From NCBI GenBank assembly GCA_004195635.1, contig PSPT01000002.1, forward strand, positions 26,200-90,199: a DNA stretch of 64,000 bases, written 5' to 3'. How positions within the stretch are numbered: position 1 is the stretch's first letter; the number at the start of each line of letters is the position of its first letter. The notes under the pieces are model-generated. The model had not been told where the DNA came from. It searched no databases and worked only from the letters and a program-made list of their open reading frames with translations. Source of the DNA: Methanobacteriota archaeon. Lineage in GTDB: Archaea; Thermoplasmatota; Poseidoniia; Poseidoniales; Poseidoniaceae. The translations under genes were made by a program, and so were the position numbers. Positions 5,446 through 62,538 of this stretch are shown in pieces.

Positions 5446-8400
5446 ATGCGAAAGACAGTGACAATAATGCTTACTTTGGTAATGCTAGCAAGTGTACTTG
5501 CGAACATTAGCCTAGTTGAGCTACAAAATGAAAAAATGAATGATGAAAGCAGTGCAAGATCTGGGCCTGAGGCCGCTTTGGTTGATGTTATCAACCCTCG
5601 CGAAACCTATGAAGATCCTATGAGTCCTGGGACATATACCCATGAGATTCTTGCTGGAGTGGATAGCAACTTTGTTGTTACCATTCAAAATACCGGAGAT
5701 GCAAATATCACTGAGATGAATATTGAAGTGACAGTATATCTTTCAGGTGGAAGCGGTAACATTGCCAAGGATGCACGACCTCGTAAGTTGTGGTGTCGAT
5801 AACCTACCTTATGGTGAATATATGAATGGAGGTTCTTATACAATTAAGGATAGTTCAGGTGCAGCAATTGTTTGGACACCACCAGTGGGTGCCTATGATG
5901 TTGTAGTTAAATTAGTTACTACACAAGATAGTATTCAATCAAATAATGCACTTTCAACATATGTAATGGTCGTTGACTGGTATGATATAGATATTGATAT
6001 GGTTTGGGATTCAAATCAGGATGACCACATTACAGGTGGAGGCACTCATGCCTTTACCATGTCAGTTTCTCTCAATGGTTCTACGAACTGGGATGCAAGA
6101 AATGTAAGTGTTTCATTGCTCTCCAGTGGCTCAGGATTAACAAGTGCTACCGGTAACAGTGGTGCAGACGACCTACTCGCAGGAGCATCAGTAATGGCAG
6201 GAGTTCTAAACGCTACAGCACTTGTATGGCAAAACATGTCAGAAAATGTTGATATTAATTCTTCAGCTTTCCAATTGAACTGGGGCGATACTTACACCTA
6301 TTCTGGTGCAGTTGAAACTGATAGTGGAGTAACAACTGGAGTTTACGATATAGTTGCAACTCTTAACTCTTACAAAATATTTTCACAGAAGCCAGATTGT
6401 GCGGCTGATGAAACAATCATTGTTGACAATGGTCCTGATGGCCAACCTGGCGGTGGGGATGACATCACAGAGATAGTAACAGTTTACCACATGTGTGATG
6501 ACGGAGAATCTGTCTCAGACGGTAATAATGCAAATAACGAAGCAGAACTATTTGGTTCACTTCAAAACTTCCATGATATTGCAGTTGTTGAAATGACTGT
6601 TCTTCAAGGATATGGAACTGGTGGCGTAGGAGCTCCTTCGGTACTAGCCCAAGACGGGGCATCTCTTGGTGTTGGATTCAGCCGCATTTTGGTTGAAGTA
6701 ACTCACAAGGGTAGCACACTTACCGAAACTTATGATTGGACAGTTAACATCGAAATCGTAGATACCTTTGGTGGCGGAGTAGTTGCTACATATGATGTTG
6801 ATGATTGTATTGACGGCCTACCAGCAGGTATGATGCCTTATAATCACAAGGACCTCGGAGACGATGGTGGCCAAGGTGGAGCCGAATTAATCGGCCATGC
6901 ATGTGCACAACATGACTTTGGTGCCGGAACAACCGGTGGCGGTCAATTTGATATCACCGCAACAGTTAGCATGGTAAACCCACCTGCTAGCGGAGACATG
7001 GTAAGCCGAAATGACGACACGACAGGTTCTTTCATGGTATTCAATAACCGACCTGTTGCATCAGCAGCAGTTGAATCCGATGGCGACATTATTGTAGGTG
7101 ACATAGTAACTCTTATGGCTAGTGGTTTTGATGCAGATGACCCTGATGGTCAATCTCTGTCATACAATTGGACTCGAACTACCTCAAATGGTTCAATGGA
7201 CGATATGGTCTTCTGTGACGATCAAGGAATGATGTGCGCAATTCCAGTTATGGATAACTGGGTTGGAACACTTCCAGTATCTGTGGTAGTTACCGACGGA
7301 TATGGTTTGGAAAGCGAACCAGCATCTGCAAACGTTCATGTGTACAACATGATTGAAGCTAATTCAATAAGTGCAAGTGGAGCAGAAATGAATTATTCAC
7401 TAACTTATGATTCCACTCAGTTGTTTGAAGTAACAATTACCGATGCAAGCCCAATTGTTGAGGAACTATTGCCTAACCAAGGAGATATTCCATACGATTC
7501 AGTAGTTTCATTGGACTACACCAATTCTCTTGGAACCCTTGGGGCAACAGCATCTGTTTTGACGCAATCCATGGACTTAACTTTTGAAGGCGCAAGTGAC
7601 GGAACCTATTCCATGTGGTATGGCGTAAGCAACCAATGGGAAATGATTGGAAATACGCTTTCAACAGTTGATAGCACTCACGTAATGCTTTCTGCAGATA
7701 TGTCAAGCCGAACAAACATCCTCGGCCCAGGTACAATTGCTGTATTCGAAGCAAGTGGCGACCAACCAACTGTTCCAGAAGCAGGTGTTGCAAGTATTTC
7801 CGCAGTATCGCAAGCAGGTGGTTCAATTGTAATTAGTTGGACTGCAGACGGCGTAATGGTTGAAGGCGACAGTTTTGAAGTTTGCATTGACTCATGCCCT
7901 AACCCAATAGTTCTCGACAGAACTATTTCGACCTACACAATGGCAGGCGCAATTCATGGACAATCATACAGTATTACTGTTAAGGTAATCAATTCCGCTG
8001 GTGCAAATGGAGTATTTGGTTCAGTAACTCATGTTGCTGACACACAAGTTGACCCAGCTGCTGCTGCTGATGCTTTAACCTTCACCGCATCTGGCGATGA
8101 CATTATTGTCGCTTGGACCGCTGGAGAAACAACTGATGTTGTGAAATGGAAGGTTTGCTGGGATACAAATACTTTTGTTGAAAATGACATGGCATTTTGG
8201 ACTGTAGACGACAAATGTGATTTCACAACAGATGCAACTGCTAGTCACACCATTCCAAAGTCTTCTGTCTCTGGTGACCACGTTATCCACGTGGCAGTCG
8301 GTGGAGTAGATTCAGTCGGAAATGAGGAGTCAAATGATGCTATGAACAGTTATTCATACACAATTGAAGGCTCAACCGGCAGTGGAACAGGAACAGTCGG

Positions 8401-8539
8401 AGATACTGTTGAAGATGGAGGCGTACCAGGCTGGGCTTGGGGAGCAATCATTGGAATAGTAGTTCTAGCATTTGTAGTCGGAGCATTCATCCTTTCACGA
8501 GGTAATGAAGGCGATGATAGCAAGGAATGGGACTACTGA
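5446..8539 (+). CDS. Large cell-surface protein (signal peptide, PKD/FN3-like beta-sandwich repeats, C-terminal TM anchor) interrupted by an apparent frameshift near 5732-5802
   Basis: The frame-1 ORF 5440-5802 encodes a signal peptide plus about 100 aa. The frame-2 ORF, open from 5732 to 8539, encodes about 930 aa and ends with a TM helix and an RGNEGDD tail. The two overlap by about 70 nt. The downstream ORF has no signal peptide of its own. Confidence 0.6.
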
Positions 8540-8597
8540 AGTTAATCTCTGATTAGCCAATCCCATACAATAACCCATCCAAGAGATGGCGATTTTG

Positions 8598-8634
8598 CCG
8601 GGGGCCTCGTGAGCGGGGTCCTCGGCCTTTTTTT
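8598..8634 (+). terminator. Intrinsic-terminator-like element: 9-bp GC-rich hairpin (with G-U pairs) plus a T7 tract
   Basis: ccgggggcc-N10-ggtcctcgg is followed by cc and TTTTTTT, immediately after the stop of the 5446-8539 gene. Confidence 0.45.
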
Positions 8635-9193
8635 ATTTTAAATTCTTATCCTTATTTCCTTAGAGGGCAAATGATTTCATTACATGAGTGTAGTTTAGTG
8701 GAGAATAATAGATCTGTGAATTGGATAAAGTTTCTTATTTTCCTTATCCGTTTTTAGTTATTCCACACGTGAGATATTATTTCCTCTGTTCTGGAATGAC
8801 ATCAAAATCGACTATTAGGAAACTTCCGATTTGGGTAAAAGGTGCAACGGCTATAATAGAAAATATGCGTGCCAGTTTGGAATTATTATAGGGTGATTAA
8901 ATAATATTATTGTGGCGTTGAAATAATATGGAAAAAATAACATTCTGTAATTTGCTAACTAGTTGAGGCCAATGTCATGCGGTATGCCGTTTTTCTGTGC
9001 GGTAGCAGCATTATATAAGCACATAATAATTTTCTTACAAACATGTTGTACCAGTGGGGGTGGGTATATTCTCATCAATAAACGCCATGCTGCGTAGCCA
9101 AAGTATATCTTAATTCAAACCGAATGCACCCCAACGCCTATAAGGGGTGCAGGGCCTCGGATGCTTTGCATACAGAGCGTATGAGGTGATGAC

Positions 9194-12100
9194 GTGAACC
9201 TAGAAAATAAAAAAATGAACAAAACTACTGTTTGGAGCGGAGTCGGTGCAGCACTTTTCTTAGTGCTGCTAATGACATTAATGCCGATGAGCGGATTAGT
9301 TGAAAATACAAAGAACGCAATTGACTTCTCTGAGGAGTCGAACCTGTCAGAAGCAAAAGAAGACCCCTTTGCTTTGCCGCAGGAGCAGAACGAAAAAGCT
9401 AGTGTCAATGAACTAGACCCTGCCAAGGAATTATTGGGAATGCGTTCCCTTAATCAAAAGGCATACATTGGCGAAGATGGCGATATCGAGGTATTAACTT
9501 ACAGCGATCCAGTCCACTTCATTTCCGATGAGGGCACTTGGGAAGAAATTGATACAAATCTCGTATCCACCCCTGGTGGCTGGGAAGTTACTGATAATAT
9601 CTTTAAGACATACTTCAGTAATGATGTTGGCAATGGTGTTGCTGTTCAAGCGCACCCAAATGCCGACCCCGTAATTGTGGGTATTCAGCCCCAGATTGTT
9701 ACTCTTGACATTACAGGAACTGCACCGATGCCATATCGTGTTGCACCTGCACTTGAAGAGATAACAACTGGTGCAAACACAATTCGGTACCCACTGGCTG
9801 AAGGTTTCGATCTCGACTACCAAGTTGAGGGAACTCAAGTCAAGCAAAATCTCATTATTCGAGAGCAGCCAATCCTAGATGCAAATGCAGAATGGCTTGG
9901 ACTTTCAGAATTTGTGCAATTGCCTGTGGATTACGCCTTGTACATGGGTGAAGTTATGATTACCAGTGAAATGGTAATGACTCAGGAACCTCTTCAGGTT
10001 CGCCACATTGAAACTGGTGATCTTCTGGTTGAATTCCCTGAACCTATTGTATTTGATGTAAATAATCATGAAATGCATGGTGCTACATACTTCGTCTCGG
10101 CAAATGGTCCAATGATCAGTTTGACCACCGCAGTAGATAGTGACTGGTTGATGGAAGAAAACCGTAGTTATCCAATTCAACTTGATCCATCTGTACAAGT
10201 AAAGCAATCAAACGGTGGATACTGTTACGTTTACTATGGATACTGCTATAACAACTCATACAGTTATTTGTACCGTTACTATGGTAGTTTGTACTACCTG
10301 CCTTGGCATAAGTATTCCTTTACTGCTCAAAACTTTGGCAGTACTGCATACGCAACTAAGGTTGAGTGGAAGATGTATCGTCAATACTACTACTCCTATT
10401 CATCTAACCAGGCTGATACAACGTTACTTCAGACCTGTGGTGTGGACCAAAGGTACAATTATGGAGTAACATCTTCATCCTGTTCAGGAACAATCGCTTC
10501 TTCATTATTATCGGGATCAAATTCCAATTATAATGAACGTAAGTTAATTTCCTCAATTTGGAATAGTGCAACTACTGGAGGGACAATGCCTAGCGGAACT
10601 GGTTGGAAGACTGCAACTATTTGTAACTCTCAATCTACATGTTCAACTGGTGCAGGTTCAACAATTTTTAATGCAGCAAATAATGGTGGAACATTAGGTA
10701 TGGGTATGAAATACACAACCTCAACTTACTACTACACATATACCTACAACGCAGGTTCTTCAGCATCTTACTTCAAGGTGACTTACGGCGGAGCCTCTGA
10801 CACAACACCTCCTGCAGCGCTAGATTATGCAGCTTACACTGGCCTCACGTCATACAAAGAAGGCGCACGCACATTCTTCATCACCTTGAAGGACAACTCA
10901 GGAATTGACTCCACTTCTACCAACGGTCCAAAGTTGATGTACAGCATCAACAATGGAACCTACTCTAGTGCTAGTGCATCTTCAATCGGCACCTGCTCAA
11001 CATCAGTTTCAACCTGTAAATTCAAGGCTACAACTGCAGCACTAAGTGAAGACGACTATGTAAATTATTACTGGTCTTATCAGGATCTTAACGCAGGTGC
11101 AAATGGAGCAAACGCAGGAACTACCCCAAGTGGCGGAAGCACGTCTCCACACTGGTTCTATATTGGCAAGGTTGCCGATGCAGGTAATGCAAAGAAATTC
11201 CAAGTCTCGGTCACAGACCGCAGTGCTTACTCTTCATATCAGCCACAAAAGTACTTTGACCAACTAATGACCTATTATGACAGCAGTGACGAATTCGTGT
11301 TTGAATTTGACACTTCTGGATGCGGATCTGGTGCTCAAAGTTGTTTCTACACCACCAGTTATTACTTTTACCAAATGTGGACAATGCGCTGGACAACCAG
11401 CCCATCCAGCGGATACAATGGATTAGGCGGAACACTGTCCGGTAGTATGGATATGATGCAGGCCGATGGAGGTTATTTGTCAATATCTGCAGCCAATGGA
11501 CCCGGAATGAATCTCATATATTTCTATGATTCCTCCGCAAATAAGTGGGCAATGGTTGGACTAGATACTTCAACAGGAATTGATGAACCAATGTCTGGCG
11601 GAGACACACATTCTCCAAGATCAACTTACGGTTACACCAAAGCCTTCAACATTAAACTAGACAATATCTATGGTACAGTAGGTAAGTTTGACTTTAACGG
11701 TTCATACAGTTCAAGTCGCGCTAACTGGCTATGTCAAGGAACAAACGGATTCGTTTACTTCTTCCGCAGTACTTCTTCTAACCCAATTTGTACAAGTGGA
11801 TACTACTATGCATATTCAACATCATACAGGTGGACTGGATTTGCAATAGGTACTGGGTACTACGGTAGCCAAGCAACTACTGGTGCAACCTCATCTAAGG
11901 TGAGTAAAGTCGCACCAGAGCCAGATCGAAGCGGACCAAAGATGGACTTTACATCACTATTAGATAGCCACGCGCTTGAGCGAACAATATCTGTTGTTAT
12001 TGGCGACCAAGGTGAGCCACCAACTGGACTAAATATTTCTTCAACAAGTGAAATCGGGCCAACACTATACTATCGTTTATCGGGTGCCTCTTCATGGGAT

Positions 12101-15100
12101 TCAAAGAATTTGAATCCAGTTGGTGGAAATCGCAATGCATGTATTTTGAGTGCTTGTGAATGGACTGCTAAACTAGGCGGGACAGGAGCTGCTGCATTAA
12201 CACGTGGAGATACAATGGAATACAAAATATTCTCAAAAGACGTCAATTCAGACAGTGCTGGAGCTAACTCCAACACAAGTTCAGTCGTTTCTTTCGAAGT
12301 GGGCGATCCAAACAAGATGTTTGTAGTTGAATGGCACGATGTTGGATATCGTAATGATATCTATGAATGCACATATCAAGCAGTATTCTATGATGTTACT
12401 AACGAAATTGAATTCAAATATGATTCAAATTGTGAAGTATATTACGACTATGCTACAGTAGGTTATCAAGACCAAACTCGTACTAAGGGTGCTACATTAC
12501 GTGAACCTCTCGACTACATGGCAGGCGCCAACCCGCACAAGGTAAATTACCGAATTGGAACAGACGGTAGCAGCCACGGATCGGAAACATTTGACCTCGG
12601 TGCAATTGAAATCGTTAACTATCAAACAGCAATTACCGGTTCATCCAATGGATATCCATATGCATACTACTGCACTTCTTCCTATTACTACCAAACTTGG
12701 AAGGCAGGTTGTGACGCAAATATTGACATGCCTGATGGCTTCAACTTCGATTACTTTGGCACAACATACAATGGAAGCCAATCAAATAGTCGTGTGATGA
12801 TTAGCAGATTCGGTGGAATGTACTTCAAGAGTACTACCTCAACTGCTCCTGAAAGGGCAATGACTACATGGTATTCAAATATGCCAGACTTACCATACGC
12901 TTCGAGTACATTTTCAAGACCTGGACTAATTGCTCCATGGTGGGGATATTACAGTGCATACTATTGCTATGATTCCTCTAGCACAGATTGTAGTGTACGA
13001 TACCGAGTAATGCCGTTTGAAGGCAAGGGTACGGATATTACCTCTGATCTTCCGAACGGTGCTAATTGGGACTTAATTGACAGTCCAATTCGGATTAACC
13101 CAAGTAATGATTATCTTTCAATAGGTGGAGATGTAAATATTGAGCCTGGTGTAGTTATTCAAGTCGGAGCTGGCAAGGGAATTTCCTTTGATGGCAGTTG
13201 TGACAAATTTATAGCATCGGGTAATTCAACAGACCACATCCTCTTTGAGGGACAGAGTGGCGGAACATGGAAGGGACTTGCTTTCACAGCAGGTTGTACT
13301 ACCGGTACTGATGACCGACATTCCTTGGAATATGTTGACTTTGCAAACACAACTGATGCAGCAATTGCAGCAGGCAGTCGTCACGGAAGTTCACCAAGCA
13401 CAAACTCTAATGTTGGAAACTTCACAATGAACGAAGTAACATTCACCAATGTGGGTAGTGCAATAATGCATGGAAGTGGAGACGGTTCAGCCTTTGATAT
13501 CAGCAACTTTGCTGTTGATACCGCAAGCGGAAGTTGTTTCAATTTCCCAACTGACTCAGTAGTTTCTCTATACGAAGGTACTATGACTAACTGTAATACT
13601 GCAGGTGGAGCAAATGACGGTGCGGTAACAAGCGAAACTGGAACAGCAGGTTCATATTCAATTGAAAATGTATCTGTATCTGGTTCCCCAGTGAACCTCT
13701 TCGTGCTCAATGCACCAACAGTAATGTTGTCAAATGTTTCTGCTGGATCTTCATCAGCACAGAGTGGAATTGGAATTGCCCAGAGCAGAGCAACTGCAAC
13801 TGGAACAGAAACGTTCTATGCTTACAATGTTGATGCAAGTGGCTACAGTACTTCATATGTTTATGCAGATGATAGTTATTATCTTGAAGATGTGGATTTG
13901 GGCGATGGTGCATTAACTTTGCAACATTCCTCTTACACAATGCTTGGTCCAAGCGGAAGTGATGCAACTCTTGACAATGTTCAAGCAGGTGCCATCAATA
14001 TGTACAGGACTGCGCCAATGATGGATGATATTACTGCTACTGGAATGGTGATTAGTGGAGGAAGCCCAACAACCGATGGAATGTTGGGAGCTAATATTGA
14101 TTTGACCACTGGTGGATTTTTCGCATATGGGTGTGGATACTCATACACATTTACTGGTCTTGATGCTTTGAATATCAAGAGTTCTTGTTCAAGCAGCAAT
14201 GCGCCAAATACATTCGTAATTGATGGTGGTGCTTTGACGGGCAATAGTGGAGGCGATGCATTATATGCTCGTAACTCGAAGGTAACTGTCGGAGATGTCG
14301 CAATTACCGGTAGCCCAACAAATGTGGCTACTTCAAGTACGAATGGACAAGTCACTCTTGTTGAAGTCACTAACGGCGGAAACAGTTGCGCTGACTCAAG
14401 CGGATGGATTTCAACAAACTGTGCCCTCGACATTACTTCTTCAACTGGTAATATTTACCTTGGAGGACTAGCAGAAGTTGGAGTATTCAAGATGGTAAAT
14501 GTGAGTGGAACTTTAACAAAGATCTACAAACCAAACCACGTTGTAACTGCAGAACTTGTTGATGGTTCTGGCTCAACTATAACAACTGTCGGAAGACATG
14601 TTACTGATTCCACAGGATTTGTTGACGCATGGGTTCTAAACAACCAACTTTCTGGACTCAGTTTAACCTCAACATCCTATACCAATCACAATGTGTTTGC
14701 TTGGGGTGCCGCAGGAATGAATGAATCTTACGACATTACCTTTGGAATTGGCGACGCGATTGAATTGCGGCTTGAACCAGCACCAATTGACTTTGACCAA
14801 CCTAACATGGATTGTAACTGGCTAAAAAATAATGCAACAACTTCAGCATTTGACCCAGAAGGCGACGATACATATCTCTTTGATGAAACTCCAATGACTT
14901 TGTCAGCGGACCTAAACATTGATGGTTGTACCATTACTTTGATGGGTGCTTCATTGAAGATAAAGTCTGATGCTACAAACAGTCCTTCCCTAATTATCAG
15001 TAGTGGTGGAGTAGTGCAACTAAACATATCTTCAACAAATACAGTTGGTATGATAAAGGCCGTTTCTAGTTCTTACCCCATGCACATTGATATCCAAGAC

Positions 15101-18100
15101 GGTACTCTTTGGCTTGATGGTGGAGTCGTGCGAGATCACGCTCAATCAGCAACAACAGGTGCAGGATTGTATGTCGGAGAGGGTGCAACGCTCAAGATGA
15201 CAAACGCTGGTTCAGTTTACGGATTAGCAGCGACTTCCGATGCAATGGCAACTGTCAAGATTAATGGTGGAACACTTGAAGGTAATAGTGGAAACATCTT
15301 TAATACACAGCAAACTGGAACTGGTATTTGGTTCGAAGATGCTCAAACCGGAATGTCTAATCTTGGAGTTAGTGGTGCAGCAGTAGGTATTCAATCCTAT
15401 AATGCGGCCCCTCAACTCAATGGCTTTACTGTTACAAGCAGTACTGTAGGAGTGGATGTATACGGAGGAATGAGTTTACCAATGCTATATCGTTCAACTT
15501 CATTATCAGGCGAATCATCTGGTTGGAAGACATACTCACTGGATTTGGGTGCTTTCCTTTCAGAGGACTACGTACAAGTTGGATACAATAGCGTATTTGA
15601 AGGTGGAAATGCTCACCCATTGTACAATTATGCAACCTCAAAGTATTACATGATGACCGACAGAATGTGGGTTGAATTTGATCTTGATACTACCGGTGAC
15701 GGAGTTGCAGATTCTTCCTACAATCAATCTACACGAACTTCTGCAATGAGGAGTTCTGCAGGTTATTACGATGGAGCTAATGCAGGTTCAAGTGGTAGCG
15801 ATGATTATGCAGGATACAATTACTATGACTGCAATTTGTATGGCTACACTCAAAACCCAGCATACCGAGACTACGGATACTATTGGTATATGGCAAATCA
15901 AGGCTATAACGGTGGTAAGTACACAAGCAATGGTAATTACGACTATCCTGGATACTTCGGATATAGAATGGAAGCAAATGCTGACAGTTCAAGCAATTCT
16001 CTATACTATCCATATCACTACTGGGCATACTATTACACCTCCTATCATGGCGGCTGGGGCAAGAACATGCCTCCAGAGGGTTACAATGGAATGTGGAATA
16101 ATTACAACATCTGTATGGATTATGCATATACCTATTACTCAAGCCCAGGTGACGGTTTCAGAATAGCCATGCCAATTATTGACATGACAAACACTGGAGA
16201 TAGCGGTGTAAGTGGAGCAGTAACCGGCGCTATCGTCGGTGCAAGTCTAAACATAGACTTCTTCCACAACCGTGCTGACAATTACCAAGACCGTATTGAA
16301 ATTGTTGCTCGCTCAAGTAGCGATGTTACAAACATGGGTGACTGGATGCGTGAAGCAGGAACTCCTCTTCTCACCAATGGAAACATTACTGGTGCAGATG
16401 TAGGTGTCAGTATTGGCGGCAATTTCGCAGCAGCAAACTTTGAAAACCTTCTGATAACAGCACCAACATCAACAGGATTCGAGATGGATGGTTCAGCCTT
16501 TACAAATGTAGATGGCTTAACTGTCACCGGTGGAAATTACGGCGTACTTGTCGGATTAACATCTGGTGGAAGATTGGATGTCACTAATTCTGCATTGAGC
16601 AGTCAAGCGATTGCGGGAGTATCCTACCTCAAGGATATATCTGGATCCTTTGAAGGAACCATTACTGGAAGTGCTGGAGCAGCGATTGAATATGGTACTG
16701 CTACGTCGGAGACCCATGCTTATGACTCGTTGAGTCTCTCTGCGAATACAGTAGGTATGAGTCTCAACGGAAAAGGAACATTTGATTTCACCGATAGTAA
16801 CTTTGCTAATACAGAGGACTTCAATATTGGTGGTTCATCAATTGTGACTTTCGTAGATGGAACTGTAGATGAAACGACTGTAGCAGTTACTGGAACCGGA
16901 TTGTTCAAGAGAGCACGTTCGCTCGAAATAACATTGACTGCGGATGGCTCTAATATTGCAGGAACTAAAATAATGCTAATGGATTCAGAAGGTGCAGTAA
17001 CTGGCACAGCAACAACCGACTCAAGTGGAGTTGCAAGTGGAATCTTGTATAATACTGCATTAGTTGATTCGTCTGGAGCAACATGGCCTGTATTATCTGG
17101 CTATTCCGCCTCAGCCGCAGCAAAGGTAGAACATACTTCCACAGTTATGGATTACCGTTACAAGTCGCAAGCAGTTGCTCTAAGCAACACTACATCAAGT
17201 ACTGATATTATGGCTATGACAAGTTCTGATATGGTACTTCATCGTGTATGTTATGGCTATACTTCAACCTCGTACCAAATGCTTGGCAGTTGTAGCTCAG
17301 GTCTCGGAACTGGAAGTACCAAGACCTACTCCAACGGAGCAAAGGAGTATGGATACTATGGCGCTACGCCGAAGGACATGTCTGGAAAGACCATTATGGT
17401 TGACGTACCATTCATGTATATTGGTTCAGATTCAAGTGGTTCCACAAAGAATACTTGGAATGATTCCACAATTATTGTAACCGGTTCTTACACCTATTAT
17501 AATAATCAACGCTGGACATCTACCTCTCCATACAACTCGCATCTTTACATGAACAATACTACTGTTATCTCTTTGTCTGAATATGATGGCACACAAACTG
17601 GAATCCACCTCGGATATTATGCTTGGTCGGATATCAATCCATGGGTAACAAACAGTACTATCGTCGGATTAAGCAGTATTGCTGCCGGTCGAGAAAATTC
17701 GAACTGGGATCCAGATCACTTCGTGGTTGAGGATAACATACTAATTCGTGGAATGGGTGGGCCTGGAGCGGCGAAGACTTCCTTCTTCTATGAAGAAATG
17801 TGTATCGTAAACAGTGGTATTCATGAAGCTTCTATCAAGGGCAACACAATTTCTGGATGCCCTGTGGGAATCATGATGAGAAATATTGTTTACTCATATG
17901 GGTTCTCTTCAAGTGTATGGGGACCAGATGACTCTGTAATCTCCGGCAACGACTTCGAAGACACAGGTAGCCTTTCGATATGGTTCTACTTCTCCTACGG
18001 AGACGATGTAGAAGTATCAGGAAATACCTTTAGCGGTAGCACTGTACCTCATTACCATGTATATGGTCAGAGTACATCTACAACTGGTCTAATAGTTGAT

Positions 18101-21100
18101 GGTAATACATTCACATCAGGAGCCAATCCAATTTATCTACGAGGAACTCAAAATTTCGATGTTAAGAATAATATTATTGCTGGTGACAAAAACGACGCTC
18201 ACCCAGGTATTTACACATTGAATGGATATGGTTCAATTACCGACAACACTCTCGTTGACTCTGACGGCGGTATCATGATTGATGGTATCCGTTCAGGACA
18301 ATCATTGAGCGTAACTGGTAACTCAATATCCACAAGTAGTGGACGAACTGCACCAAGTGCAATTGGAATTTGGGCTGAAGACTGTGGCGCATCAACTCTA
18401 ACGACTGGAAACAACGACATTTCAACTGTAATGAATGCAATGGTCGTTGACGGATGTGACGTTGATGATACAGGTTCAGATCTACGTGGTACCGGAGGAG
18501 CAGGTAGCAACTCATGGTCTGTTGATGTCATGGCCTCCTACTACGACCCACAGAATCTAACGATTAGCGAAGGCGACACAGTTCGATGGAGAGCCAAAGA
18601 GTATTACAACGGTGCTACACATACTGTAACAAGTAACGATACTTCATCTGGTTCACCTCTGTTTGAGACTTCCGGTACTGGTATGAATTTGGGAAGTACA
18701 TTCTCATACACTTTCACTACTGCTGGAACATATGAGTATCATTGTGCTAATCACCAATTCATGTATGGTAAAATCATAGTAACTTCGGGTAGTAGCTCAA
18801 GCTTTACCTCTGTTGGACTAAATGTAGTAGGCAATAACGATGATATTTCACTTGATGGAACAAGTGTTAGTGGATTCACAGTTGCTCACAGCCAAAGTGG
18901 TGGTAGTCTAGACTTAACCGGAGATGCTTCTCTAATAGGAGACACTTATGCGGTTGAACTCAGCAATGTTGATGTGACCTCTGACGGAGCATTCGTCAAG
19001 GCTAACGAAACAGTAGGTGTAGGATTATACCTCGCAAATGGTGGAAGTATTGACTTAACCAACCTCAGCACAAAGGCAGGATACGGTGTTTACACCGATG
19101 GAACTGACTTCCGCTGGAATGGTGGAAATGCAGAAGGTGGAACTGCACTATATGTAATCGGTGGCGCAGAGGGTAGTGTTGAAAATCTTACCTTCGTAGC
19201 ATCCTCACGCAATGGTGGAGCAGTAACAACTCAAATCAATGCAGGACCATATTCAGTAATTACCTCTGTTGGTAACACTCTTGACCCAGGATCATTGATT
19301 TTGGATATAACTGCTGTTATCCATGAGGCTAACTTACTAACATTTGACTCGGACAGAAATGAAGACTACGACCCAAGCACTGCTGCAACACCCGCAGCTG
19401 ACCTTGGAATGATGATTAAGTCAACCGATGGTGCAAAGGCAGCATATGTCAGCCCATCCTTCCGTACTAACTTCATAACACCTAACGGCGACATGAGTGA
19501 TTGGTTAGGTAACCCACTCAATCCATCTGATGATGCTATGCCTGGTGTAATGTCTGGCGATGGTACAAATGATATGCTAGTAACATGGGATTCTCAGAAT
19601 CTCTATGTGGCTGTAACCGGCGAAGACATGGCATCTGGTGACCTGTTCATCTATATTGACAGCACAAATGGCGGTTCAACGACCACCGCAGATTGGTATG
19701 GTGTACACAACCTACCATTCGGTGCCGACCACGTCCTATGGGCTGAAGATGGTTCAGATGCACCAAATGACGGTGACTCAACAAACACATGGGGTCTAAA
19801 GTCCTACAACATCGCAACTTCAACATTCAATGAGAATTCTGCAAGTTGTACTGCAATGAGCGCAACAATTGGTGACAGCACAGATTCAGACACCGAGTTT
19901 AAGATACCATGGTCCTGTATTGGCTCACCTGCTGATACTGTCCGATTAATGGGAATTGTTCAAGATGAAACTTCTGTTGACATCCAAACAATCCACCCAT
20001 CTCAGACAATCACCGGTAGTGGAACTGAAACATTGGTAACACCAATTGAGGTTACATTAAACCAAGGTGACCTTGGAGACGGTTCTCTAACAGATTATCA
20101 GTTGATTTACCGCAGTTTCGTTGGAAGCAGCACACCAACAGATCCTAAGGAATACGATGTAATGGTCCTTGCTGACGCACCATGTGCTGAAGATTGGGGA
20201 ACAATTTCTGATATCAACATGAGCACCAATGTTGCAGAATCTCTAACCATTGAGCGAGCATGTCCATTCATTGCTTCGCCAAGTTTCGTTACCGTCACAA
20301 CAACCGGCAACAATCTAACAGGAACTGGCTACATGGTAGGATTCGAAGACATGCCAATGCAAATAATTCCATTGACTGGATATGGTATAGACATGCAAAC
20401 CACCGCTGTTAACATGGGCTGGCAAATTACAGACCATCCAAGCACAGCAATGGCTCCAACTACATTGTTGAGTTACAACCAATGGGGTGTAACGGGAATG
20501 ACTATTCCTGTAGACCTTGATGGTGATGGAGTTACTGACTGGGATATGCCAATTGGAGATGACCACCTCGTAAATCTATCTGTTAATGCAAATCAATTCG
20601 GATACTACACAGTATTCCTAACATTGACTGATGAACATGGATTAACTGATGTCGGTATTCTAACCGTTATCATTCTACCAATCAACGACGCACCAATTAT
20701 TTGGAACACTGGTCGTACAGATGGACTCCCTGTATTCGTATCTGATGCTGCAGGTAATGCAAACGTAGCTGATGAAGGATTCGGTTCTCTGACCATCCCA
20801 CTCGGCAGTGCTGCAAACACACCTGGTAGTTTCGTAATGGATCAAGCAAATGAGCAGCCTCAAGTTTATACATGGGGCGCAAGCGTACCTGCTTCCTGTT
20901 CTGCAATCTCAGTAGATGTAACCAACAATGTACTGGTTATTACTGAGAATCAAGCAAATGAACTTGGAGGAGAGTGTGCAATTACCATGACTCTAAGCGA
21001 TGACGGAACTGATGCATTCCCAATTAGTTATATCCACCCACTACTCGGTGTGGACATCTATGGTTGGACCTTCAACGATGCGTACCCAGTACCGGTTACC

Positions 21101-22834
21101 TTCCGCGTTAACCCAGTCAACGATGCTCCTGAAGTATTAGACTATGACCACCAAAGTGGACAGGTAATTACTGCAGGTAATGGAACAAGTGTGGCTCTAC
21201 CATGGCGTCTAATCGTCATGGAAGACGATATGTCTACAGACAACCTAACCTTTGACCTTTCAGCAATGAAGGACGATAACGACCACTTGGATAGCGAACT
21301 AACTTGGGAATTCGTGAGTACCAGCAATTGTGTTTGGCAGAACTACTTCTCTGACATCAGCATTACAGGTGATGACATTGCGTTCACACTAATACCTGAC
21401 GCAACAACAACTGCACCTCCTGAAGAAATCGATTATCTTGATGACGGTGGAATACACCAAACTCGCCCAACAGGTGGAGATTACTGTGTAATCCGTATGT
21501 ATCTAAACGATACTGCAATCGCACCTGCTCACACACCTAACTACGGTTATGATACTGCAACATACACACAACAAGGCGATGAAGTACTCTTGTACATTCA
21601 GGTAAAGAATATTCCTGAGCCAGTACCTGATTACTACTTTGATGTAATTTCTGGATTTGACTTCCACGGCGTACAAAATATCATGCCTGGTTCTGAAATT
21701 CCGGTCTCAGTTGATCTTGTGCACGAAGGAGATGTCCCACCATACAAGTACGACCACCTACTCAAGGTTGAATTCTGGTCCAACGGCCACACCACTGGTG
21801 ATGAAGTTCAAGACATTCAGTTCATTGAACCACCAGCAATGGGAGAAACTATTGAAGTATTCAGCGACGATGTAATGATCGAATCTGGAACAACAGCAGT
21901 TTATGTCCGTGTTGACGTAATGACCTGTGTAAACAGTGTCTGTCCAGCACCAGCAGATGTAACTCCATCTGACTTCATTGCTGACTCACCACCGGCACAC
22001 CGCTGTGACAATCAACTAACAGTCGCTTGGTCATGTCCTGGTAAGCACGCAGGAACATCCCTACGTCGTCCATTCTTGGAAGACAGCAACTTCAGCAACA
22101 ATATCATGTATACAAGTAATGCCCAAGCCGGTACTCTTGATGCAAATGATGACTTGCCAAAGCGTGTAAGCCTAATCGGCGCATCTGCTGTACCTTCCTT
22201 TGCTCCAAGCATTGTAATGGTCAGTATTGTTGGAATGTTCGTCGGTGCTCTTGCAGCATCCGGACGCCGTGATGAAGAGGAAGATGTTGAGGAAATTGAA
22301 GATGATGAATCTGCAGTCAGCCCAGTTATTGCTACTATCTTGATGGTTGCTATTACAGTTGTATTGTCTGGTGTCATTTATGTGTGGGCTAGTGATTTAG
22401 CTAACACTGATGCCAAGACTGTACCTCGTATTGGTATGAAGGTCGTTGAACACGAACCCGATGTAAGTACTGGATACTGGACTCTTGAAGTCACCTCAGC
22501 AAAGACCGAGTTGGCTACACAAGCGGTAATCATCCAAGTTACTTGGGATGGCGGTTTCTATGAAACCAGCCTAGCAAACCAGACAACCTACGGATTCGTA
22601 ATATCTAACGTACCAGGCGATGTCGCAGCACCAATTACTGTGACCTTTGCTGACAACGTAGACTGTGATGACCTAGGTGAAAACTGTAAATCAACCTTCG
22701 GTGTTGGAGACTTTATCGTCATCGGATCTCACGATTCAAATGGCGACAAAATCCTAAATGTTGACGTAACCGTTCGCTACTCACCTGGAATAGGCAGTGC
22801 ATCTGTCCTCCAAGAGTTCCGTGGACTTGTCTGA
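9194..22834 (+). CDS. Giant (4546 aa) multi-domain cell-surface adhesin-like protein
   Basis: A single uninterrupted ORF starts at GTG, with GAGGTGA 5 nt upstream and an alternative ATG at 9215. Features in order: N-terminal signal/TM; Tyr-rich low-complexity segments; parallel beta-helix (PbH1/NosD-like) repeats; a type-1 copper cupredoxin motif (H...[11 protein letters not shown]); a CBM9-like segment; cadherin-like INDAPI/VNDAPEV repeats; a C-terminal TM ([19 protein letters not shown]) with acidic tail; and a pilin-like module. Confidence 0.85.
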   Translation: [4546 protein letters not shown]

Positions 22835-26479: not shown

Positions 26480-26552
26480 TGGGCCTGACCAGATTTGAAC
26501 TGGTGATATTCGCCTTGTAAAGGCGACGTAATAACCCCTATACCACAAGCCC
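26480..26552 (-). tRNA. tRNA-Val (anticodon UAC)
   Basis: The reverse complement reads GGGCUUG...UCGCC-UUUACAA-GGCGA...ACCAG-UUCAAAU-CUGGU-CAGGCCC-A. The acceptor and T stems pair fully, the loop has U33 and A37, and the anticodon is UAC. CCA is not encoded. Confidence 0.75.
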
Positions 26553-26661: not shown

Positions 26662-28254
26662 TCATTCGCCAATATTCAATTGGCTTCCAATGCCCATTGT
26701 AGCATGCCCCTCGGAGTGAAGGCTACCAATTTCAGTCATGAGTATTCCTCCAACTGGGATAAATAATACCTCTGAGTATTGATGCTTCAAATCCTCAATT
26801 TCAGTTTGCTTGGTTGCCCAATCCTTTTTCCAGTGAAATAGTTTGACTGCTTTTGCTCCTTGATTTATTGCTTGTTCAGTTTGAGAAATATTTGCAACTC
26901 CTGGTATTGCTAACATGTTGTGTTGCTTGGCGATATTTACCATGTCTTTGGGGTTATTGGGGGCAAGGGCAAATGTAGCACCGCATTTTTGAGCCATAGG
27001 GATTTGAGTTTCGGGTTGTGAAATAGTGCCGACTCCAATAAGTATCCTTGGGGGAAGAGTGGACCGAATAGCAGCAATGGTCTCGAAGGGCTTGTCCGAA
27101 TCAAGGGTCACTTCAATTGCTTTGCAGCCTTCAGCGACTAGTTGAATTGCTAATTCCACCGCTTTGACTGGTTCATGTTTGCGAAGTATTGCAATCACCC
27201 CTGAGAGTGGATTTAGCGGTTTGTGGATGGTATTAGAGGATGAGCGGTTTAGCGAGGTGTGGCTTTGGCCCATAATTGTGAGAGTGCGCAAAGTAGCCTC
27301 TGCAACTCCTTCTTCAAGTGCGATGTCGGTAATGGTAGAGAAGTCTCCAATTCCCGCCTGAACCATAGCAGCATACTTGTCAGCCCTTCTAAGAATCTGC
27401 TCCTCATCAAATCCTTGGAGCATCCCGTCCAACCATGCGCCTACCCACGCATCACCTCCACCGAGAGGGTCAATCAAAGGTGAGGAACTCGGATTTTTAA
27501 TAGTTGAAACTGATTTATATTGCTGAAAAACAGAGGACATGGTTGACCACCTACTGCGAATGCCATTTTCGTCCGTTTTGTGACTGCAGGTTACCCATGT
27601 GAGCCCAAATTTCCTTCGAACTTCAGAAACTGCGTTTTCAATTTGGTCTGCTGGAGTTTCAATCAAATCGTTTTCATACATTTTTTCTAAGTCCGTTGTC
27701 GAAAGGTGAAGGGCGTGAATTTGGCGAAGTTTTGGCTCAATAATTGCCCACAGTTCCTCCCATTCACCTAGGGCTGGACGGTGGTTAATGTCAAGGCTGA
27801 TTAGAAAACCATCTAATTCAGCCCAACCCATCGCAGTAGCCCATAATGACTTGGGTTTTTCTCCAAGCAAAGGGGTGATGCCACTGAGGTGCAACCATCT
27901 AACTCCGTCAAATATTGGACGCAATAATTCGGGAAAATGTTGTGGAGTGAGGTGGGCAAAGGCTGAGTTCTTCCTTTGGTAAATTGGAGATTTACTATCC
28001 TCGGTTATTCGATATTTACCTGTTGGGTAGGGGAGGGTTTTGACATGACTTAGATCAACTCCCGCCGAGAGAGCATCCCGGCGGATACGCTTTGCAGCGG
28101 GGTCATCGCCAAGTGCCGAAATCCAACTGACTTTTCGCCCAAGCATTGCTAAACTTACCGCGGTGTTCAGTTCTGAACCTCCGGGTGTCGTAATGCTTCC
28201 AAGTCCACCCGATGCCTGTCTAAGCATCGCTTCCCCGAGGCAGATTACTTCCAC
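26662..28254 (-). CDS. Bifunctional 2-keto-3-deoxygluconate kinase (PfkB family) / KDPG aldolase (Eda) fusion
   Basis: The N-terminal half has PfkB motifs (VICLGEAM, GGSELNTAVSLAMLG, DPLGGGDAWVGAW). The C-terminal ~200 aa match Eda along their length (IEVTL, IGVGTI, GATFALAP, IPGV, AVKLFH with the Schiff-base Lys context). Confidence 0.7.
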   Translation of the reverse strand: MEVICLGEAMLRQASGGLGSITTPGGSELNTAVSLAMLGRKVSWISALGDDPAAKRIRRDALSAGVDLSHVKTLPYPTGKYRITEDSKSPIYQRKNSAFAHLTPQHFPELLRPIFDGVRWLHLSGITPLLGEKPKSLWATAMGWAELDGFLISLDINHRPALGEWEELWAIIEPKLRQIHALHLSTTDLEKMYENDLIETPADQIENAVSEVRRKFGLTWVTCSHKTDENGIRSRWSTMSSVFQQYKSVSTIKNPSSSPLIDPLGGGDAWVGAWLDGMLQGFDEEQILRRADKYAAMVQAGIGDFSTITDIALEEGVAEATLRTLTIMGQSHTSLNRSSSNTIHKPLNPLSGVIAILRKHEPVKAVELAIQLVAEGCKAIEVTLDSDKPFETIAAIRSTLPPRILIGVGTISQPETQIPMAQKCGATFALAPNNPKDMVNIAKQHNMLAIPGVANISQTEQAINQGAKAVKLFHWKKDWATKQTEIEDLKHQYSEVLFIPVGGILMTEIGSLHSEGHATMGIGSQLNIGE

Positions 28255-62537: not shown

Positions 62538-62538
62538 T

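What the first reader, a model, noticed from the sequence alone, without database searches (positions are those of the whole stretch)
9194..22834. 4546-aa single-ORF multi-domain surface protein (13.6 kb) combining beta-helix, cupredoxin, CBM-like and cadherin-like modules
One uninterrupted reading frame occupies 21% of the window. The order, read from the translation, is: signal peptide; about 300 aa of unknown sequence; a Tyr/Cys-rich segment; a VEWHDVGY...FYDVTNEIEFKYD beta-sandwich; long right-handed parallel beta-helix repeat arrays (NTxxGN / I.G.. patterns); a type-1 copper site; a CBM9-like unit (LVTWDSQNLYVAVTGEDMASGDLFIYIDS); cadherin-like repeats; and a TM anchor. Giant multi-domain surface proteins are known from host-dependent nanohaloarchaea (the SPEARE proteins). 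This one has a different domain inventory, with no protease or nuclease motifs seen. It is a candidate attachment or host-interaction factor.
Basis: partly seen in the sequence, partly recalled or inferred. Interest (0 to 1): 0.8.

Follow-up and report, generated by a model that had tools for sequence, protein, structure and literature searches.

The report
Giant archaeal surface protein ending in pilin
The 13.6-kb gene is real and is conserved across the abundant marine archaea Poseidoniales; its "membrane anchor" is actually a transmembrane helix followed by a complete type IV pilin precursor, an arrangement I found described in none of the papers I searched, and one that ties a 4,300-residue surface protein to the pilus system.

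Summary
The ORF at 9194-22834 (+) is real: 4,546 codons without a stop (chance about 1e-117). Collinear orthologues at 39-57% identity, in the same gene neighbourhood, occur throughout Poseidoniales (Marine Group II), including on long-read contigs.

Domain claims:
- Confirmed: a cupredoxin with all four type-1 copper ligands, although it is absent from many orthologues.
- Supported through orthologues: one NosD-type beta-helix and cadherin/Big_9-like Ig domains.
- Revised: the "VEWHDVGY" region is NIDO-like, on weak evidence.
- Weak hint only: the CBM9-like unit.
- No recognisable domain: the N-terminal 1,000 aa.

It runs: TM helix, a 17-aa RR-plus-acidic loop, then a full archaeal prepilin. 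The prepilin has the family's leader/mature junction (DDESA|VSPVIATIL), a helix that is almost invariant in 52 orthologues, and an Ig-like head whose best structural matches are archaeal pilins and archaellins. In every locus where the sequence allowed a check but one, this module sits at the end of a giant ORF. Free-standing Poseidoniales pilins share the helix.

Best reading: a giant surface adhesin made as one polypeptide with a pilin, and probably split from it by the class III signal peptidase. Cleavage and filament assembly are inferred, not shown. New variant of known kinds.

The parts
9183..9189 (+). Shine-Dalgarno-like GAGGTGA, 4 nt upstream of the GTG start
   Evidence: Read directly from the sequence. 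Orthologue P0135 begins at the equivalent residue.
9194..22834 (+). Giant ORF, 4,546 aa plus stop codon
   Evidence: Collinear orthologues.
9224..9304 (+). N-terminal hydrophobic segment (aa 11-37) after a Lys-rich n-region: a Sec-type signal peptide or N-terminal anchor
   Evidence: One of only three hydrophobic 19-mers in the protein. The same layout is seen in full-length orthologues.
9305..12220 (+). N-terminal third (aa 38-1009), specific to this family, including a Tyr-rich block at about aa 341-480. No recognisable domain.
   Evidence: Conserved at 42-56% identity in Poseidoniales fragments and in L085. No homologue carries a Pfam domain.
12221..13093 (+). NIDO-like region (aa 1010-1300), containing FVVEWHDVGY...FYDVTNEIEFKYD. 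Part of the best-conserved stretch of the ectodomain.
   Evidence: PF06119 NIDO in 18 of 44 orthologues, best E 0.0011, below the curated threshold. 58-66% identity over aa 1008-1407. No PDB sequence hit.
13094..15493 (+). Putative right-handed beta-helix arrays (aa about 1301-2100)
Evidence: No tool result supports or refutes it.
15764..16156 (+). Conserved Tyr-rich low-complexity block (aa 2191-2321)
   Evidence: 32 Tyr in aa 2201-2400. The block is conserved in the orthologue consensus.
17918..18283 (+). NosD-type right-handed parallel beta-helix (aa 2909-3030)
   Evidence: NosD PF05048 in 4 of 13 orthologues and in P0134 (1.4e-9) and P0131. These segments map to aa 2909-3030 at 33-43% identity. 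The orthologue profile hits PL6 alginate lyase 7o79, E 3.9e-4. The window sequence itself gives no Pfam hit.
18509..18781 (+). Cupredoxin domain (aa 3106-3196) with a complete type-1 copper ligand set: H3143, C3184, H3187, M3190 (C-x2-H-x2-M, amicyanin type)
   Evidence: PF00127 8e-8. Amicyanin 2gb2 at 3.5e-11, with the ligands aligned. The segment is missing from about two-thirds of the 12 aligned orthologues, but is present in the divergent P0140 and P0146.
19391..20113 (+). Candidate CBM9-like beta-sandwich (aa 3400-3640; motif LVTWDSQNLYVAVTGEDMASGDLFIYIDS at aa 3462-3490)
   Evidence: CBM9_1 is the top Pfam family, but in only 2 of 44 orthologues, best E 0.011. No PDB profile hit. AF2 pLDDT is 60-79 here, and no CBM9 structure is among the top 50 fold matches. 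Inconclusive.
20345..21136 (+). Cadherin/Big_9-like Ig domains (aa 3718-3981, each ending in an ..NDAP.. motif)
   Evidence: Big_9 in 6 of 13 orthologues and Cadherin_5 in 4 of 13. P0123 and P0125 hits map to aa 3718-3827. Foldseek on the low-confidence model gives protocadherin/cadherin arrays and SraP.
22196..22264 (+). TM1 (aa 4335-4357, SFAPSIVMVSIVGMFVGALAASG): stop-transfer helix at the end of the ectodomain
   Evidence: Hydrophobicity. Helix 138-162 in the AF2 model. Conserved SFAPS...G.FV.AL motif.
22265..22315 (+). Cytoplasmic loop RRDEEEDVEEIEDDESA (aa 4358-4374), ending in the prepilin leader/mature junction. Predicted class III signal peptidase site between A4374 and V4375.
   Evidence: Junction logo: the fused modules (n=52) have D/E at -5, D at -4, D/E at -3 and A at -1 (52 of 52). 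Free-standing pilins (n=105) have N/D/E at -4, E/D at -3 and A/G/S at -1. Leaders of free pilins are listed. Cleavage itself is inferred.
22316..22402 (+). Type IV pilin N-terminal hydrophobic helix VSPVIATILMVAITVVLSGVIYVWASDLA (aa 4375-4403)
   Evidence: PF07790 at 30.7 bits (cutoff 25.2) and TIGR02537 at 41.1 bits (cutoff 20). Invariant or nearly invariant at almost every position in 52 orthologues. PDB pilins 8fj5, 8gi2 and 9myg.
22403..22831 (+). Pilin head: Ig-like beta-sandwich (aa 4404-4546)

Best explanation
The gene encodes a giant cell-surface protein that is conserved across Poseidoniales (Marine Group II archaea) and is translated as one polypeptide with a type IV pilin precursor.

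Proposed sequence of events:
1. The N-terminal signal drives Sec-dependent export of an acidic ectodomain of about 4,300 residues. Its parts, in order, are an N-terminal third with no recognisable domain, a NIDO-like domain, beta-helix arrays, a type-1 copper cupredoxin (not present in all lineages), a possible CBM9-like unit, and cadherin/Big_9-like Ig domains.
2. TM1 (aa 4335-4357) stops transfer across the membrane.
3. A 17-residue loop (RR followed by acidic residues) stays in the cytoplasm.
4. The pilin helix (aa 4375-4403) re-inserts into the membrane and places the Ig-like pilin head outside.
5. The loop ends in the leader/mature junction of this pilin family (DDESA|VSPVIATIL). I therefore propose that the class III signal peptidase (a PibD/FlaK homologue) cuts between A4374 and V4375. 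This would leave a giant adhesin anchored by TM1 and a mature pilin.
6. The pilin would enter the type IV filament assembly pathway together with the free-standing Poseidoniales pilins that share its helix. The adhesin would thus be made in 1:1 ratio with a pilus subunit, and at the same place.

Shown here: the reading frame, its conservation, the domain content, the three-segment topology, the pilin fold, and the retained junction motif.

Inferred: cleavage, incorporation into a filament, and the adhesive role of the ectodomain.
For: Real, conserved gene. Collinear single HSPs of 3,500-3,700 aa at 39-57% identity to 43 orthologues. Full-length collinearity on a long-read contig. Intact orthologues of 4,372-5,559 aa. 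The same synteny (HAD hydrolase, PolD small subunit, CinA, pelota, FTHFS, Band_7).

Topology: there are exactly three hydrophobic segments.

Pilin module:
- Pilin_N and TIGR02537 score above their curated cutoffs.
- Pilin_N is found in 13 of 13 orthologues.
- The AF2 head domain has pLDDT about 90.
- The module aligns end to end with a normal 174-aa pilin, including the end of its leader.

Always fused: 531 loci in the species-representative genome collection encode the module. In 78 of the 80 fetched loci the frame upstream stays open to the edge of the available sequence; in 51 of them that is at least 3,359 codons. Every short database hit is a fragment that starts inside TM1 or the loop.

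Processing site retained: A at -1 in 52 of 52 fused modules, and acidic residues at -3 and -4 as in 105 free-standing pilins. P0192's leader ends ...RKDESA|VSPV, against the window's ...EDDESA|VSPV.

Link to the pilus system: the helix is nearly invariant while the rest of the protein averages 41-45% column identity. Free-standing 'type IV pilin [Ca. Poseidoniaceae/Poseidoniales]' proteins carry an almost identical helix, AVSPVIATILMVAITVVLAGVLYVWAS.LA.
Against: - No experiment or proteomic datum shows cleavage or assembly.
- The fused junction lacks the K/R that free pilins have at -5/-6; it has D/E there. Its -2 position is variable. Recognition by the peptidase is therefore not guaranteed.
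- A prepilin site preceded by a TM helix and 4,370 residues has no precedent that I could find.
- There are no pilus assembly genes in the window. A T2SSF platform gene lies about 10 kb upstream in only one related genome, with unrelated genes in between.
- If the two products simply separate, it is not obvious why the fusion is kept. Its conservation would equally fit a covalent, uncleaved role.
- Adhesion is inferred from domain types alone, and about 1,000 N-terminal residues have no assignable fold.
Confidence: 0.45

Rival explanations
1. Uncleaved hairpin anchor. The pilin-like module is never processed. TM1 and the pilin helix form a permanent two-helix membrane anchor. The Ig-like head acts as a membrane-proximal stalk or docking domain, as in the archaellum stator proteins FlaF/FlaG. 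It might contact the pilus or archaellum platform, or other copies of the protein.
For: FlaF and FlaG structures are among the structural matches. The junction lacks the K/R seen at -5/-6 in free pilins, and -2 is variable. The fusion is never found split, which is what a need for covalent linkage would predict. One database annotation of a fragment reads 'FlaG/FlaF family flagellin'.
Confidence: 0.3
2. Envelope protein. The giant protein is the main structural cell-envelope (S-layer-like) component of Poseidoniales rather than an adhesin, and the pilin-type module is its membrane attachment.
For: It is present across the order in fixed synteny next to housekeeping genes, collinear and of stable length. 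It is strongly acidic (496 D+E against 187 K+R) and rich in Ser/Thr/Gly, with 38 N-glycosylation sequons. The SbsB S-layer protein appears among the weak fold matches.
Against: At 4,546 aa it is several times larger than the known S-layer proteins I am aware of (own knowledge, not tested). No S-layer family was detected. The domain types found (NIDO-like, cadherin-like, beta-helix) are typical of adhesins. Some genomes carry two or three copies. Nothing here bears on abundance or lattice formation.
Confidence: 0.15
3. Extracellular enzyme. The beta-helix regions are polysaccharide lyases or hydrolases and the cupredoxin is redox-active, so the protein is a cell-bound degradative or redox mega-enzyme for high-molecular-weight organic matter.
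For: The orthologue profile hits PL6 alginate/poly-mannuronate lyases (E 3.9e-4 to 0.58). NosD-type helix. Complete type-1 copper site. Invariant charged/His motifs (DDRH, SRHG, HGSG) lie in the best-conserved stretch, aa 1360-1425. A neighbouring 3,006-aa protein carries 5 CBM96 modules.
Against: The lyase matches are short (about 105 residues) and typical of generic beta-helix repeat similarity. No glycoside hydrolase or lyase Pfam family was detected in 13 orthologues. The cupredoxin is missing from most Poseidoniaceae orthologues. No catalytic residues could be assigned.
Confidence: 0.1
4. Artefact. The long frame or the pilin fusion results from misassembly, a lost stop codon or a chimeric contig.
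For: Giant genes often break or mis-join in short-read assemblies. One related contig (L086) shows a duplicated block of about 21 kb with a truncated 1,416-aa copy.
Against: The same architecture appears in 78 of 80 independent genome loci, in intact 4,372-5,559-aa proteins from several sources, and collinearly on long-read contigs. There are no repeats that could mislead an assembler.
Confidence: 0.01

Closest known systems
Archaeal type IV pilins of the Pilin_N (PF07790, formerly DUF1628) family, e.g. Haloferax volcanii PilA (PDB 8fj5) and Natrinema PilA2 (8gi2), and the free-standing Poseidoniales and Thermoplasmata pilins P0157, P0160 and P0168
   Same: The same leader/mature junction (acidic residues, then A|VSPVIATIL), the same hydrophobic helix, the same Ig-like head fold, and a similar module length of 173-194 aa.
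   Different: In known pilins the class III signal is at the N-terminus of a small precursor with a leader of 8-37 residues. Here it follows 4,334 residues of secreted protein and a TM helix, and the K/R at -5/-6 is replaced by D/E.
Modular pilins and class III signal-peptide surface proteins: the Sulfolobales sugar-binding proteins of the bindosome, Streptococcus sanguinis PilB/PilC (own knowledge), and P0254 found here (1,164 aa)
   Same: A pilin N-terminal helix is combined covalently with large functional extracellular modules. P0254 even combines it with Ig repeats and a cupredoxin. The 2026 archaeal TFF survey describes class III signal proteins with beta-helical C-terminal domains.
   Different: In all of those, the pilin helix comes first and the cargo follows it. 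Here the order is reversed, so cleavage at the pilin site would separate the cargo from the pilin instead of leaving them joined.
[quoted passage not shown] 2016, PMC4858521)
   Same: A large secreted adhesin-type protein functionally tied to a type IV filament system.
   Different: Those are separate genes inside pilus loci, without a pilin domain of their own. No PilY1 or DUF2341 domain was detected here, and the gene is not in a pilus locus.
   Same: Very large, secreted, multi-domain archaeal surface proteins.
   Different: No protease or nuclease domain was detected. The organism is a free-living planktonic Poseidoniales, not a DPANN symbiont. The protein is a conserved collinear orthologue with a pilin terminus. 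The features of SPEARE proteins are recalled from memory and were not checked in a paper here.
Archaellum stator proteins FlaF/FlaG (ArlF/ArlG)
   Same: An N-terminal membrane helix followed by an archaellin-like beta-sandwich that stays at the membrane. They appear among the structural matches.
   Different: They rank lower than true pilins. FlaF/FlaG are small stand-alone proteins of archaellum operons. The helix here matches pilins at the sequence level.

Membership tests
Archaeal type IV pilin / class III signal-peptide protein (Pilin_N PF07790, TIGR02537) | Conserved hydrophobic N-terminal alpha-helix that matches the family models above their curated thresholds | tested here: met
   PF07790 at 30.7 bits (cutoff 25.2) and TIGR02537 at 41.1 bits (cutoff 20). 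Found in 13 of 13 orthologues.
Archaeal type IV pilin / class III signal-peptide protein (Pilin_N PF07790, TIGR02537) | Globular Ig-like beta-sandwich head with the archaeal pilin/archaellin fold | tested here: met
Archaeal type IV pilin / class III signal-peptide protein (Pilin_N PF07790, TIGR02537) | The signal sits at the N-terminus of the precursor, after a short charged leader | tested here: not met
   The helix starts at residue 4375 of 4546, after an ectodomain and a TM helix. Free pilins have leaders of 8-37 aa.
Archaeal type IV pilin / class III signal-peptide protein (Pilin_N PF07790, TIGR02537) | Leader/mature junction recognised by the class III signal peptidase (small residue at -1, charged residues upstream) | tested here: inconclusive
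   A at -1 in 52 of 52 and acidic -3/-4, as in 105 free pilins. But D/E replaces K/R at -5, and -2 is variable.
Archaeal type IV pilin / class III signal-peptide protein (Pilin_N PF07790, TIGR02537) | Cleavage by PibD/FlaK and polymerisation into a filament | not testable with these tools
   Needs biochemistry, proteomics or cryo-EM.
Cupredoxin / type-1 (blue) copper protein | Cupredoxin fold match plus the His, Cys, His, Met ligand set | tested here: met
   PF00127 at 33.1 bits (cutoff 21.2). Alignment to amicyanin with H, C-x2-H-x2-M conserved.
Right-handed parallel beta-helix (NosD / PbH1 / PL6-like) | Match to beta-helix repeat models | tested here: inconclusive
   The window sequence gives no hit. 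4 of 13 orthologues hit NosD, with P0134 at 1.4e-9, mapping to aa 2909-3030. The profile hits PL6 lyase at 3.9e-4. The other proposed arrays were not tested.
CBM9 carbohydrate-binding module | Match to CBM9 sequence models or the CBM9 fold | tested here: inconclusive
   CBM9_1 in 2 of 44 orthologues, best E 0.011, below threshold. No PDB profile hit. No CBM9 structure among the top 50 fold matches of a low-confidence model.
Cadherin-like / Big_9 bacterial Ig domains | Match to cadherin-like Ig domain models or fold | tested here: inconclusive
   The window sequence gives no Pfam hit. Big_9 in 6 of 13 orthologues and Cadherin_5 in 4 of 13, mapping to aa 3718-3827 at 23-24% identity. Foldseek shows cadherin arrays, but the model's pLDDT is 55.
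NIDO (nidogen-like) domain PF06119 | Match to the NIDO model | tested here: inconclusive
   18 of 44 orthologues at E<=1, best 0.0011. The window sequence itself gives no hit.
SPEARE-type giant proteins of nanohaloarchaea | Serine protease and restriction-endonuclease-type domains together with adhesion domains, in a host-dependent DPANN archaeon (definition recalled from memory) | tested here: not met
   No protease or nuclease family in the window protein or in 12 orthologues. All relatives are Poseidoniales or Thermoplasmatota.
PilY1 / DUF2341 pilus-associated adhesins | PilY1 or DUF2341 domain, with the gene inside a type IV pilus locus | tested here: not met
   No such Pfam hit. No pilus genes in the 64-kb window.

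The most novel reading that the evidence does not exclude
A class III (prepilin) signal peptidase site is used as an internal processing site of a polyprotein. A single 4,546-aa precursor would be cut on the cytoplasmic face of the membrane into a TM-anchored giant adhesin and a type IV pilin. The pilin would seed or join a filament while still associated with the adhesin's membrane-proximal domain, so that Poseidoniales load or position a megadalton-scale adhesin through the pilus machinery. This would be a new way of building an archaeal surface organelle. It would also be the first prepilin with a 'leader' of about 4,370 residues.
Probability: 0.3. Interest if true: 0.85.

Novelty: new variant of a known kind. 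Interest (0 to 1): 0.65.

Why it matters
Poseidoniales are among the most abundant archaea in the surface ocean. They have not been cultured, and how they attach to particles and algae is debated. The studies I read attribute adhesion to archaella, thrombospondin-like proteins and flotillin.

This work identifies a large protein of 2,785-5,559 aa (most full-length copies 4,372-4,640 aa) that is widespread in the order and is hard-wired to a type IV pilin. It is a concrete candidate for the attachment apparatus or for a major envelope component.

For pilus biology, a prepilin module placed after a transmembrane helix at the C-terminus of another protein tests what class III signal peptidases and assembly platforms can accept. 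Fragments of the gene are currently annotated only as 'type IV pilin' or 'flagellin-like protein', which hides the real architecture.

Tried and rejected
- A homologue search with the whole 4,539-aa protein timed out. I used tiles instead.
- The afdb50 fold library was not available.
- Profile searches of the CBM9-like and NIDO-like regions (44 orthologues each) against PDB sequences found nothing meaningful.
- The AF2 model of aa 3341-4200 had only 14 sequences in its alignment and reached pLDDT 55. Its cadherin matches are supporting evidence only. It cannot decide the CBM9 question.
- I considered that the many 200-580-aa 'pilin' hits were free-standing genes. Rejected: they all start inside TM1, the loop or the preceding domain, and they come from short or frameshifted contigs.
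- I considered P0122 (1,416 aa, L086) as a genuine short form. Rejected: it has no signal peptide, it starts mid-domain, and it sits in a duplicated block of about 21 kb on a nanopore contig.
- I considered an internal translation start that would yield a separate pilin. Rejected: Met positions in TM1 and the loop are not conserved.
- I looked for pilus assembly genes in the window and found none.
- I looked for internal repeats and found none.
- Literature searches found no description of this protein or of a C-terminal or internal prepilin module. The library is incomplete, so prior description cannot be excluded.
Full report
**1. The observation**

The window holds one open frame at 9194..22834 (+) of 4,546 codons. 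Given the window's base composition, a stop codon is expected every 17 codons or so. The probability of 4,546 open codons is 10^-117.5, and the longest open frame in 100 shuffles of the window was 250 aa.

The GTG at 9194 is preceded by GAGGTGA, 4 nt upstream. Orthologue P0135 begins at the equivalent residue (MNLENRK...). The gene has no tandem repeats and no internal protein repeats.

**2. Organism and conservation**

The neighbouring genes are archaeal housekeeping genes: PolD small subunit, pelota, RFC and FTHFS. All homologues come from Poseidoniales (Marine Group II) or from unclassified Thermoplasmatota / 'Methanobacteriota' MAGs. L005, a MAG from the species-representative collection, is 98% identical to the window's C-terminal region.

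- BLASTP against 43 orthologues gave single collinear alignments of 3,500-3,700 residues at 39-57% identity for many of them, and shorter or split alignments for the rest. Each orthologue was limited to about 3,700 residues by the 10-kb flank that could be fetched.
- A 901-kb long-read contig (L085) carries a copy collinear with residues 3-4545, broken only by frameshifts. The N-terminal 1,286 residues are 49-56% identical.
- Intact full-length proteins of 4,372-5,559 aa exist on independent contigs of up to 3.0 Mb.
- The downstream synteny recurs: HAD hydrolase, PolD small subunit, CinA, pelota, FTHFS, Band_7.

The ORF is not an assembly chimera.

**3. Domain inventory of the ectodomain**

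- Composition. The protein is strongly acidic (496 D+E against 187 K+R) and rich in Ser, Gly and Thr. It has conserved Tyr-rich blocks. Cys is only 1.2%.
- Direct Pfam/NCBIfam hits. On the window protein itself, only two regions match a family: the cupredoxin (aa 3106-3196) and a pilin N-terminal domain near the C-terminus.
- Cupredoxin. It aligns to amicyanin (E 3.5e-11) with the four copper ligands in place: H3143, C3184, H3187, M3190. In the alignment the segment is missing from about two-thirds of the 12 orthologues, and only 5 of the 13 aligned proteins hit the Copper-bind family. It is present at the same position in the divergent full-length members P0140 and P0146. It is therefore probably ancestral and was later lost or replaced.
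- Beta-helix. Scanning orthologues individually found NosD in 4 of 13. These hits map to aa 2909-3030. A profile of the orthologues also hits PL6 alginate lyases, which are beta-helix proteins (E 3.9e-4).
- Cadherin-like domains. Big_9 was found in 6 of 13 orthologues and Cadherin_5 in 4 of 13, mapping to aa 3718-3827. An AF2 model of aa 3341-4200 was poor (pLDDT 55). Its best fold matches were tandem cadherin and protocadherin ectodomains and the SraP adhesin.
- 'VEWHDVGY...FKYD' region. It is NIDO-like. PF06119 hits 18 of 44 orthologues, best E 1e-3. It lies in the best-conserved stretch of the ectodomain, at 58-66% identity.
- CBM9-like unit. It gets only a weak hint. CBM9_1 is the top family but in 2 of 44 orthologues, best E 0.011. 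There is no PDB hit.
- N-terminal 1,000 residues. They are conserved, but no homologue carries a recognisable domain.

**4. The C-terminus**

The protein has exactly three hydrophobic segments: aa 11-37, aa 4332-4358 and aa 4372-4403. After TM1 (SFAPSIVMVSIVGMFVGALAASG) comes RRDEEEDVEEIEDDESA, then VSPVIATILMVAITVVLSGVIYVWASDLA, then 143 further residues.

- The helix matches Pilin_N and TIGR02537 above their curated cutoffs. It also matches the solved archaeal pilins 8fj5, 8gi2 and 9myg.
- An AF2 model built from 117 sequences gives two helices joined by a disordered loop, followed by a confident beta-sandwich of pLDDT about 90.
- Foldseek's 15 best PDB matches are archaellins and archaeal type IV pilins.
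- The last 185 residues align end to end with a normal 174-aa Thermoplasmata pilin, including the end of its leader: IRKDSEAVSPV against IEDDESAVSPV (33% identity, E 6e-16).

The 'anchor' is therefore a TM helix plus a complete prepilin.

**5. The fusion is the rule**

- A scan of the species-representative genome collection found 531 loci that encode the module.
- In 78 of the 80 loci fetched, the frame upstream of AVSPVIATI stays open to the edge of the available sequence. In 51 of them that is at least 3,359 codons. Of the two exceptions, L061 is interrupted by masked N bases, so only L014 (a stop 2,303 codons upstream) is a real exception.
- In a library of 1.84 billion representative proteins, all strong hits are giant proteins with the match at the extreme C-terminus, or fragments of such proteins. 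Conventional 150-200-aa pilins appear only from E about 1e-9.
- All the short 'pilin' database entries begin inside TM1 or the loop.
- A divergent member of 2,785 aa (P0145) has the same layout.

**6. Evidence bearing on mechanism**

I compared the junction in 52 fused modules with that in 105 free-standing pilins. Both sets have Ala (or a small residue) at -1 and acidic residues at -3 and -4, followed by VSPVIATIL. The fused set differs in having D/E instead of K/R at -5, and a variable residue at -2.

The helix is invariant or nearly invariant at almost every position in the fused set, whereas the protein as a whole averages 41-45% column identity. TM1 is much less constrained.

Poseidoniales also encode free-standing pilins, annotated 'type IV pilin [Ca. 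Poseidoniaceae/Poseidoniales]'; one cluster has 224 members. Their helix is almost identical (AVSPVIATILMVAITVVLAGVLYVWAS.LA). Those genes sit in a conserved context of Sua5, M24 peptidase, the pilin and glycosyltransferases.

From general knowledge of type IV filaments, a shared N-terminal helix is what allows different pilins to use one peptidase and one assembly platform and to pack into one filament core.

**7. Interpretation**

Best reading (confidence about 0.45):
1. The ectodomain is exported by the Sec pathway.
2. TM1 stops transfer.
3. The acidic loop stays in the cytoplasm.
4. The pilin helix re-inserts, with the head outside.
5. The class III signal peptidase cuts at A4374|V4375, giving a TM-anchored giant adhesin and a mature pilin made at the same place and in equal numbers.

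A likely evolutionary origin is loss of the stop codon between a giant-protein gene ending in 'TM + acidic tail' and a downstream pilin gene. The other large surface proteins in this window have exactly that kind of terminus.

Main rival (about 0.3): the module is not cleaved and acts as a hairpin anchor with a FlaF/FlaG-like stalk domain.

The remaining possibilities are less supported:
- An S-layer-like structural role (0.15).
- An enzymatic role for the beta-helix and copper modules (0.1).
- An assembly artefact, which is excluded for practical purposes.

The S-layer-like and enzymatic roles concern the ectodomain, so they are not exclusive of either reading of the C-terminus.

**8. Comparison with what is known**

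The C-terminal module meets the sequence and fold criteria of an archaeal Pilin_N-family pilin. It fails the positional criterion, since it is not at the N-terminus.

Known 'modular pilins' and class III signal-peptide binding proteins place the pilin helix first and the cargo after it (P0254). Known pilus-associated adhesins are separate genes. Here the order is reversed.

SPEARE-type membership is not supported.

None of the Poseidoniales genomics papers or archaeal type IV filament surveys I could read mention this protein or an internal prepilin site. The library is incomplete, so this is absence of evidence only.

**9. Verdict**

- Its functional guess (a surface attachment factor) is reasonable, but the analogy to host-dependent archaea is not.
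- I rate it a new variant of known kinds, interest 0.65.

Noticed in passing
window 44069-53089 (+): A second giant ORF of 3,006 aa with five CBM96 carbohydrate-binding modules (PF24517, E 3.5e-61). It ends in a TM helix plus an acidic, Trp-rich cytoplasmic tail.
   Followed up: partly
window 5747-8539, 44069-53089, 53176-55914, 55923-58433 (all +): Four large surface proteins all end in a single TM helix followed by an acidic tail with Trp-containing motifs...KEWDY...GVEWYEDETGVWWSRGPNDEDWEEFVE...GWYYDSSGELTNWRVETNGAWTRIQ...GWTMAQWSHYGEEWLKNQS. This may be a shared cytoplasmic sorting or anchoring signal.
   Followed up: no
window 59421-61112 (-): An amino-acid permease with a C-terminal EF-hand pair, suggesting a calcium-regulated transporter.
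   Followed up: no
window 26662-28254 (-): A single ORF that fuses a PfkB-family sugar kinase to a KDPG/KHG aldolase.
   Followed up: no
window 61152-62633 (-): A LigB-type extradiol dioxygenase domain fused to an L-PSP (RidA) endoribonuclease-like domain. A second LigB ORF overlaps it at 62539-63426.
   Followed up: no
window 41412-41540 (-): A tRNA match spanning 129 nt, which implies an intron-containing tRNA gene. Two ordinary tRNAs lie at 2950-3024 and 26480-26552.
   Followed up: no
window 10214-10600 and 15764-16156 (+), inside the giant ORF: Tyr-rich low-complexity blocks, up to 32 Tyr per 200 residues, that are conserved in orthologues. Their function is unknown.
   Followed up: partly
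window 13270-13470 (+), aa about 1360-1425 of the giant ORF: Invariant charged/His motifs (DDRH, SRHG, HGSG.G) at the start of the first beta-helix-like region, in the best-conserved part of the ectodomain. They could mark a binding or catalytic site.
   Followed up: no
L093:1-1028: In a related 3.0-Mb contig, a T2SSF-type pilus platform gene and two small ORFs with pilin-like N-termini lie about 9.9 kb upstream of the intact 4,372-aa orthologue. Three near-identical giant proteins (4,371-4,377 aa) and a free-standing pilin are recorded with a contig of that length.
   Followed up: partly
L086:1-24251: A nanopore contig with a duplicated block of about 21 kb (FTHFS, Band_7 and following genes) and a truncated 1,416-aa copy of the giant gene without a signal peptide. 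Probably an assembly artefact.
   Followed up: partly
P0254 (not in the window): A 1,164-aa 'modular pilin' with a normal N-terminal class III signal, Ig-like repeats and a C-terminal cupredoxin. It has the same building blocks as the giant protein in the conventional order.
   Followed up: no
window 8596-8640 (+): A GC-rich hairpin followed by a T-run (gccgggggcctcgtgagcggggtcctcggccttttttt) after the upstream 930-aa gene. It is followed by an AT-rich intergenic region of about 550 nt before the giant gene.
   Followed up: no
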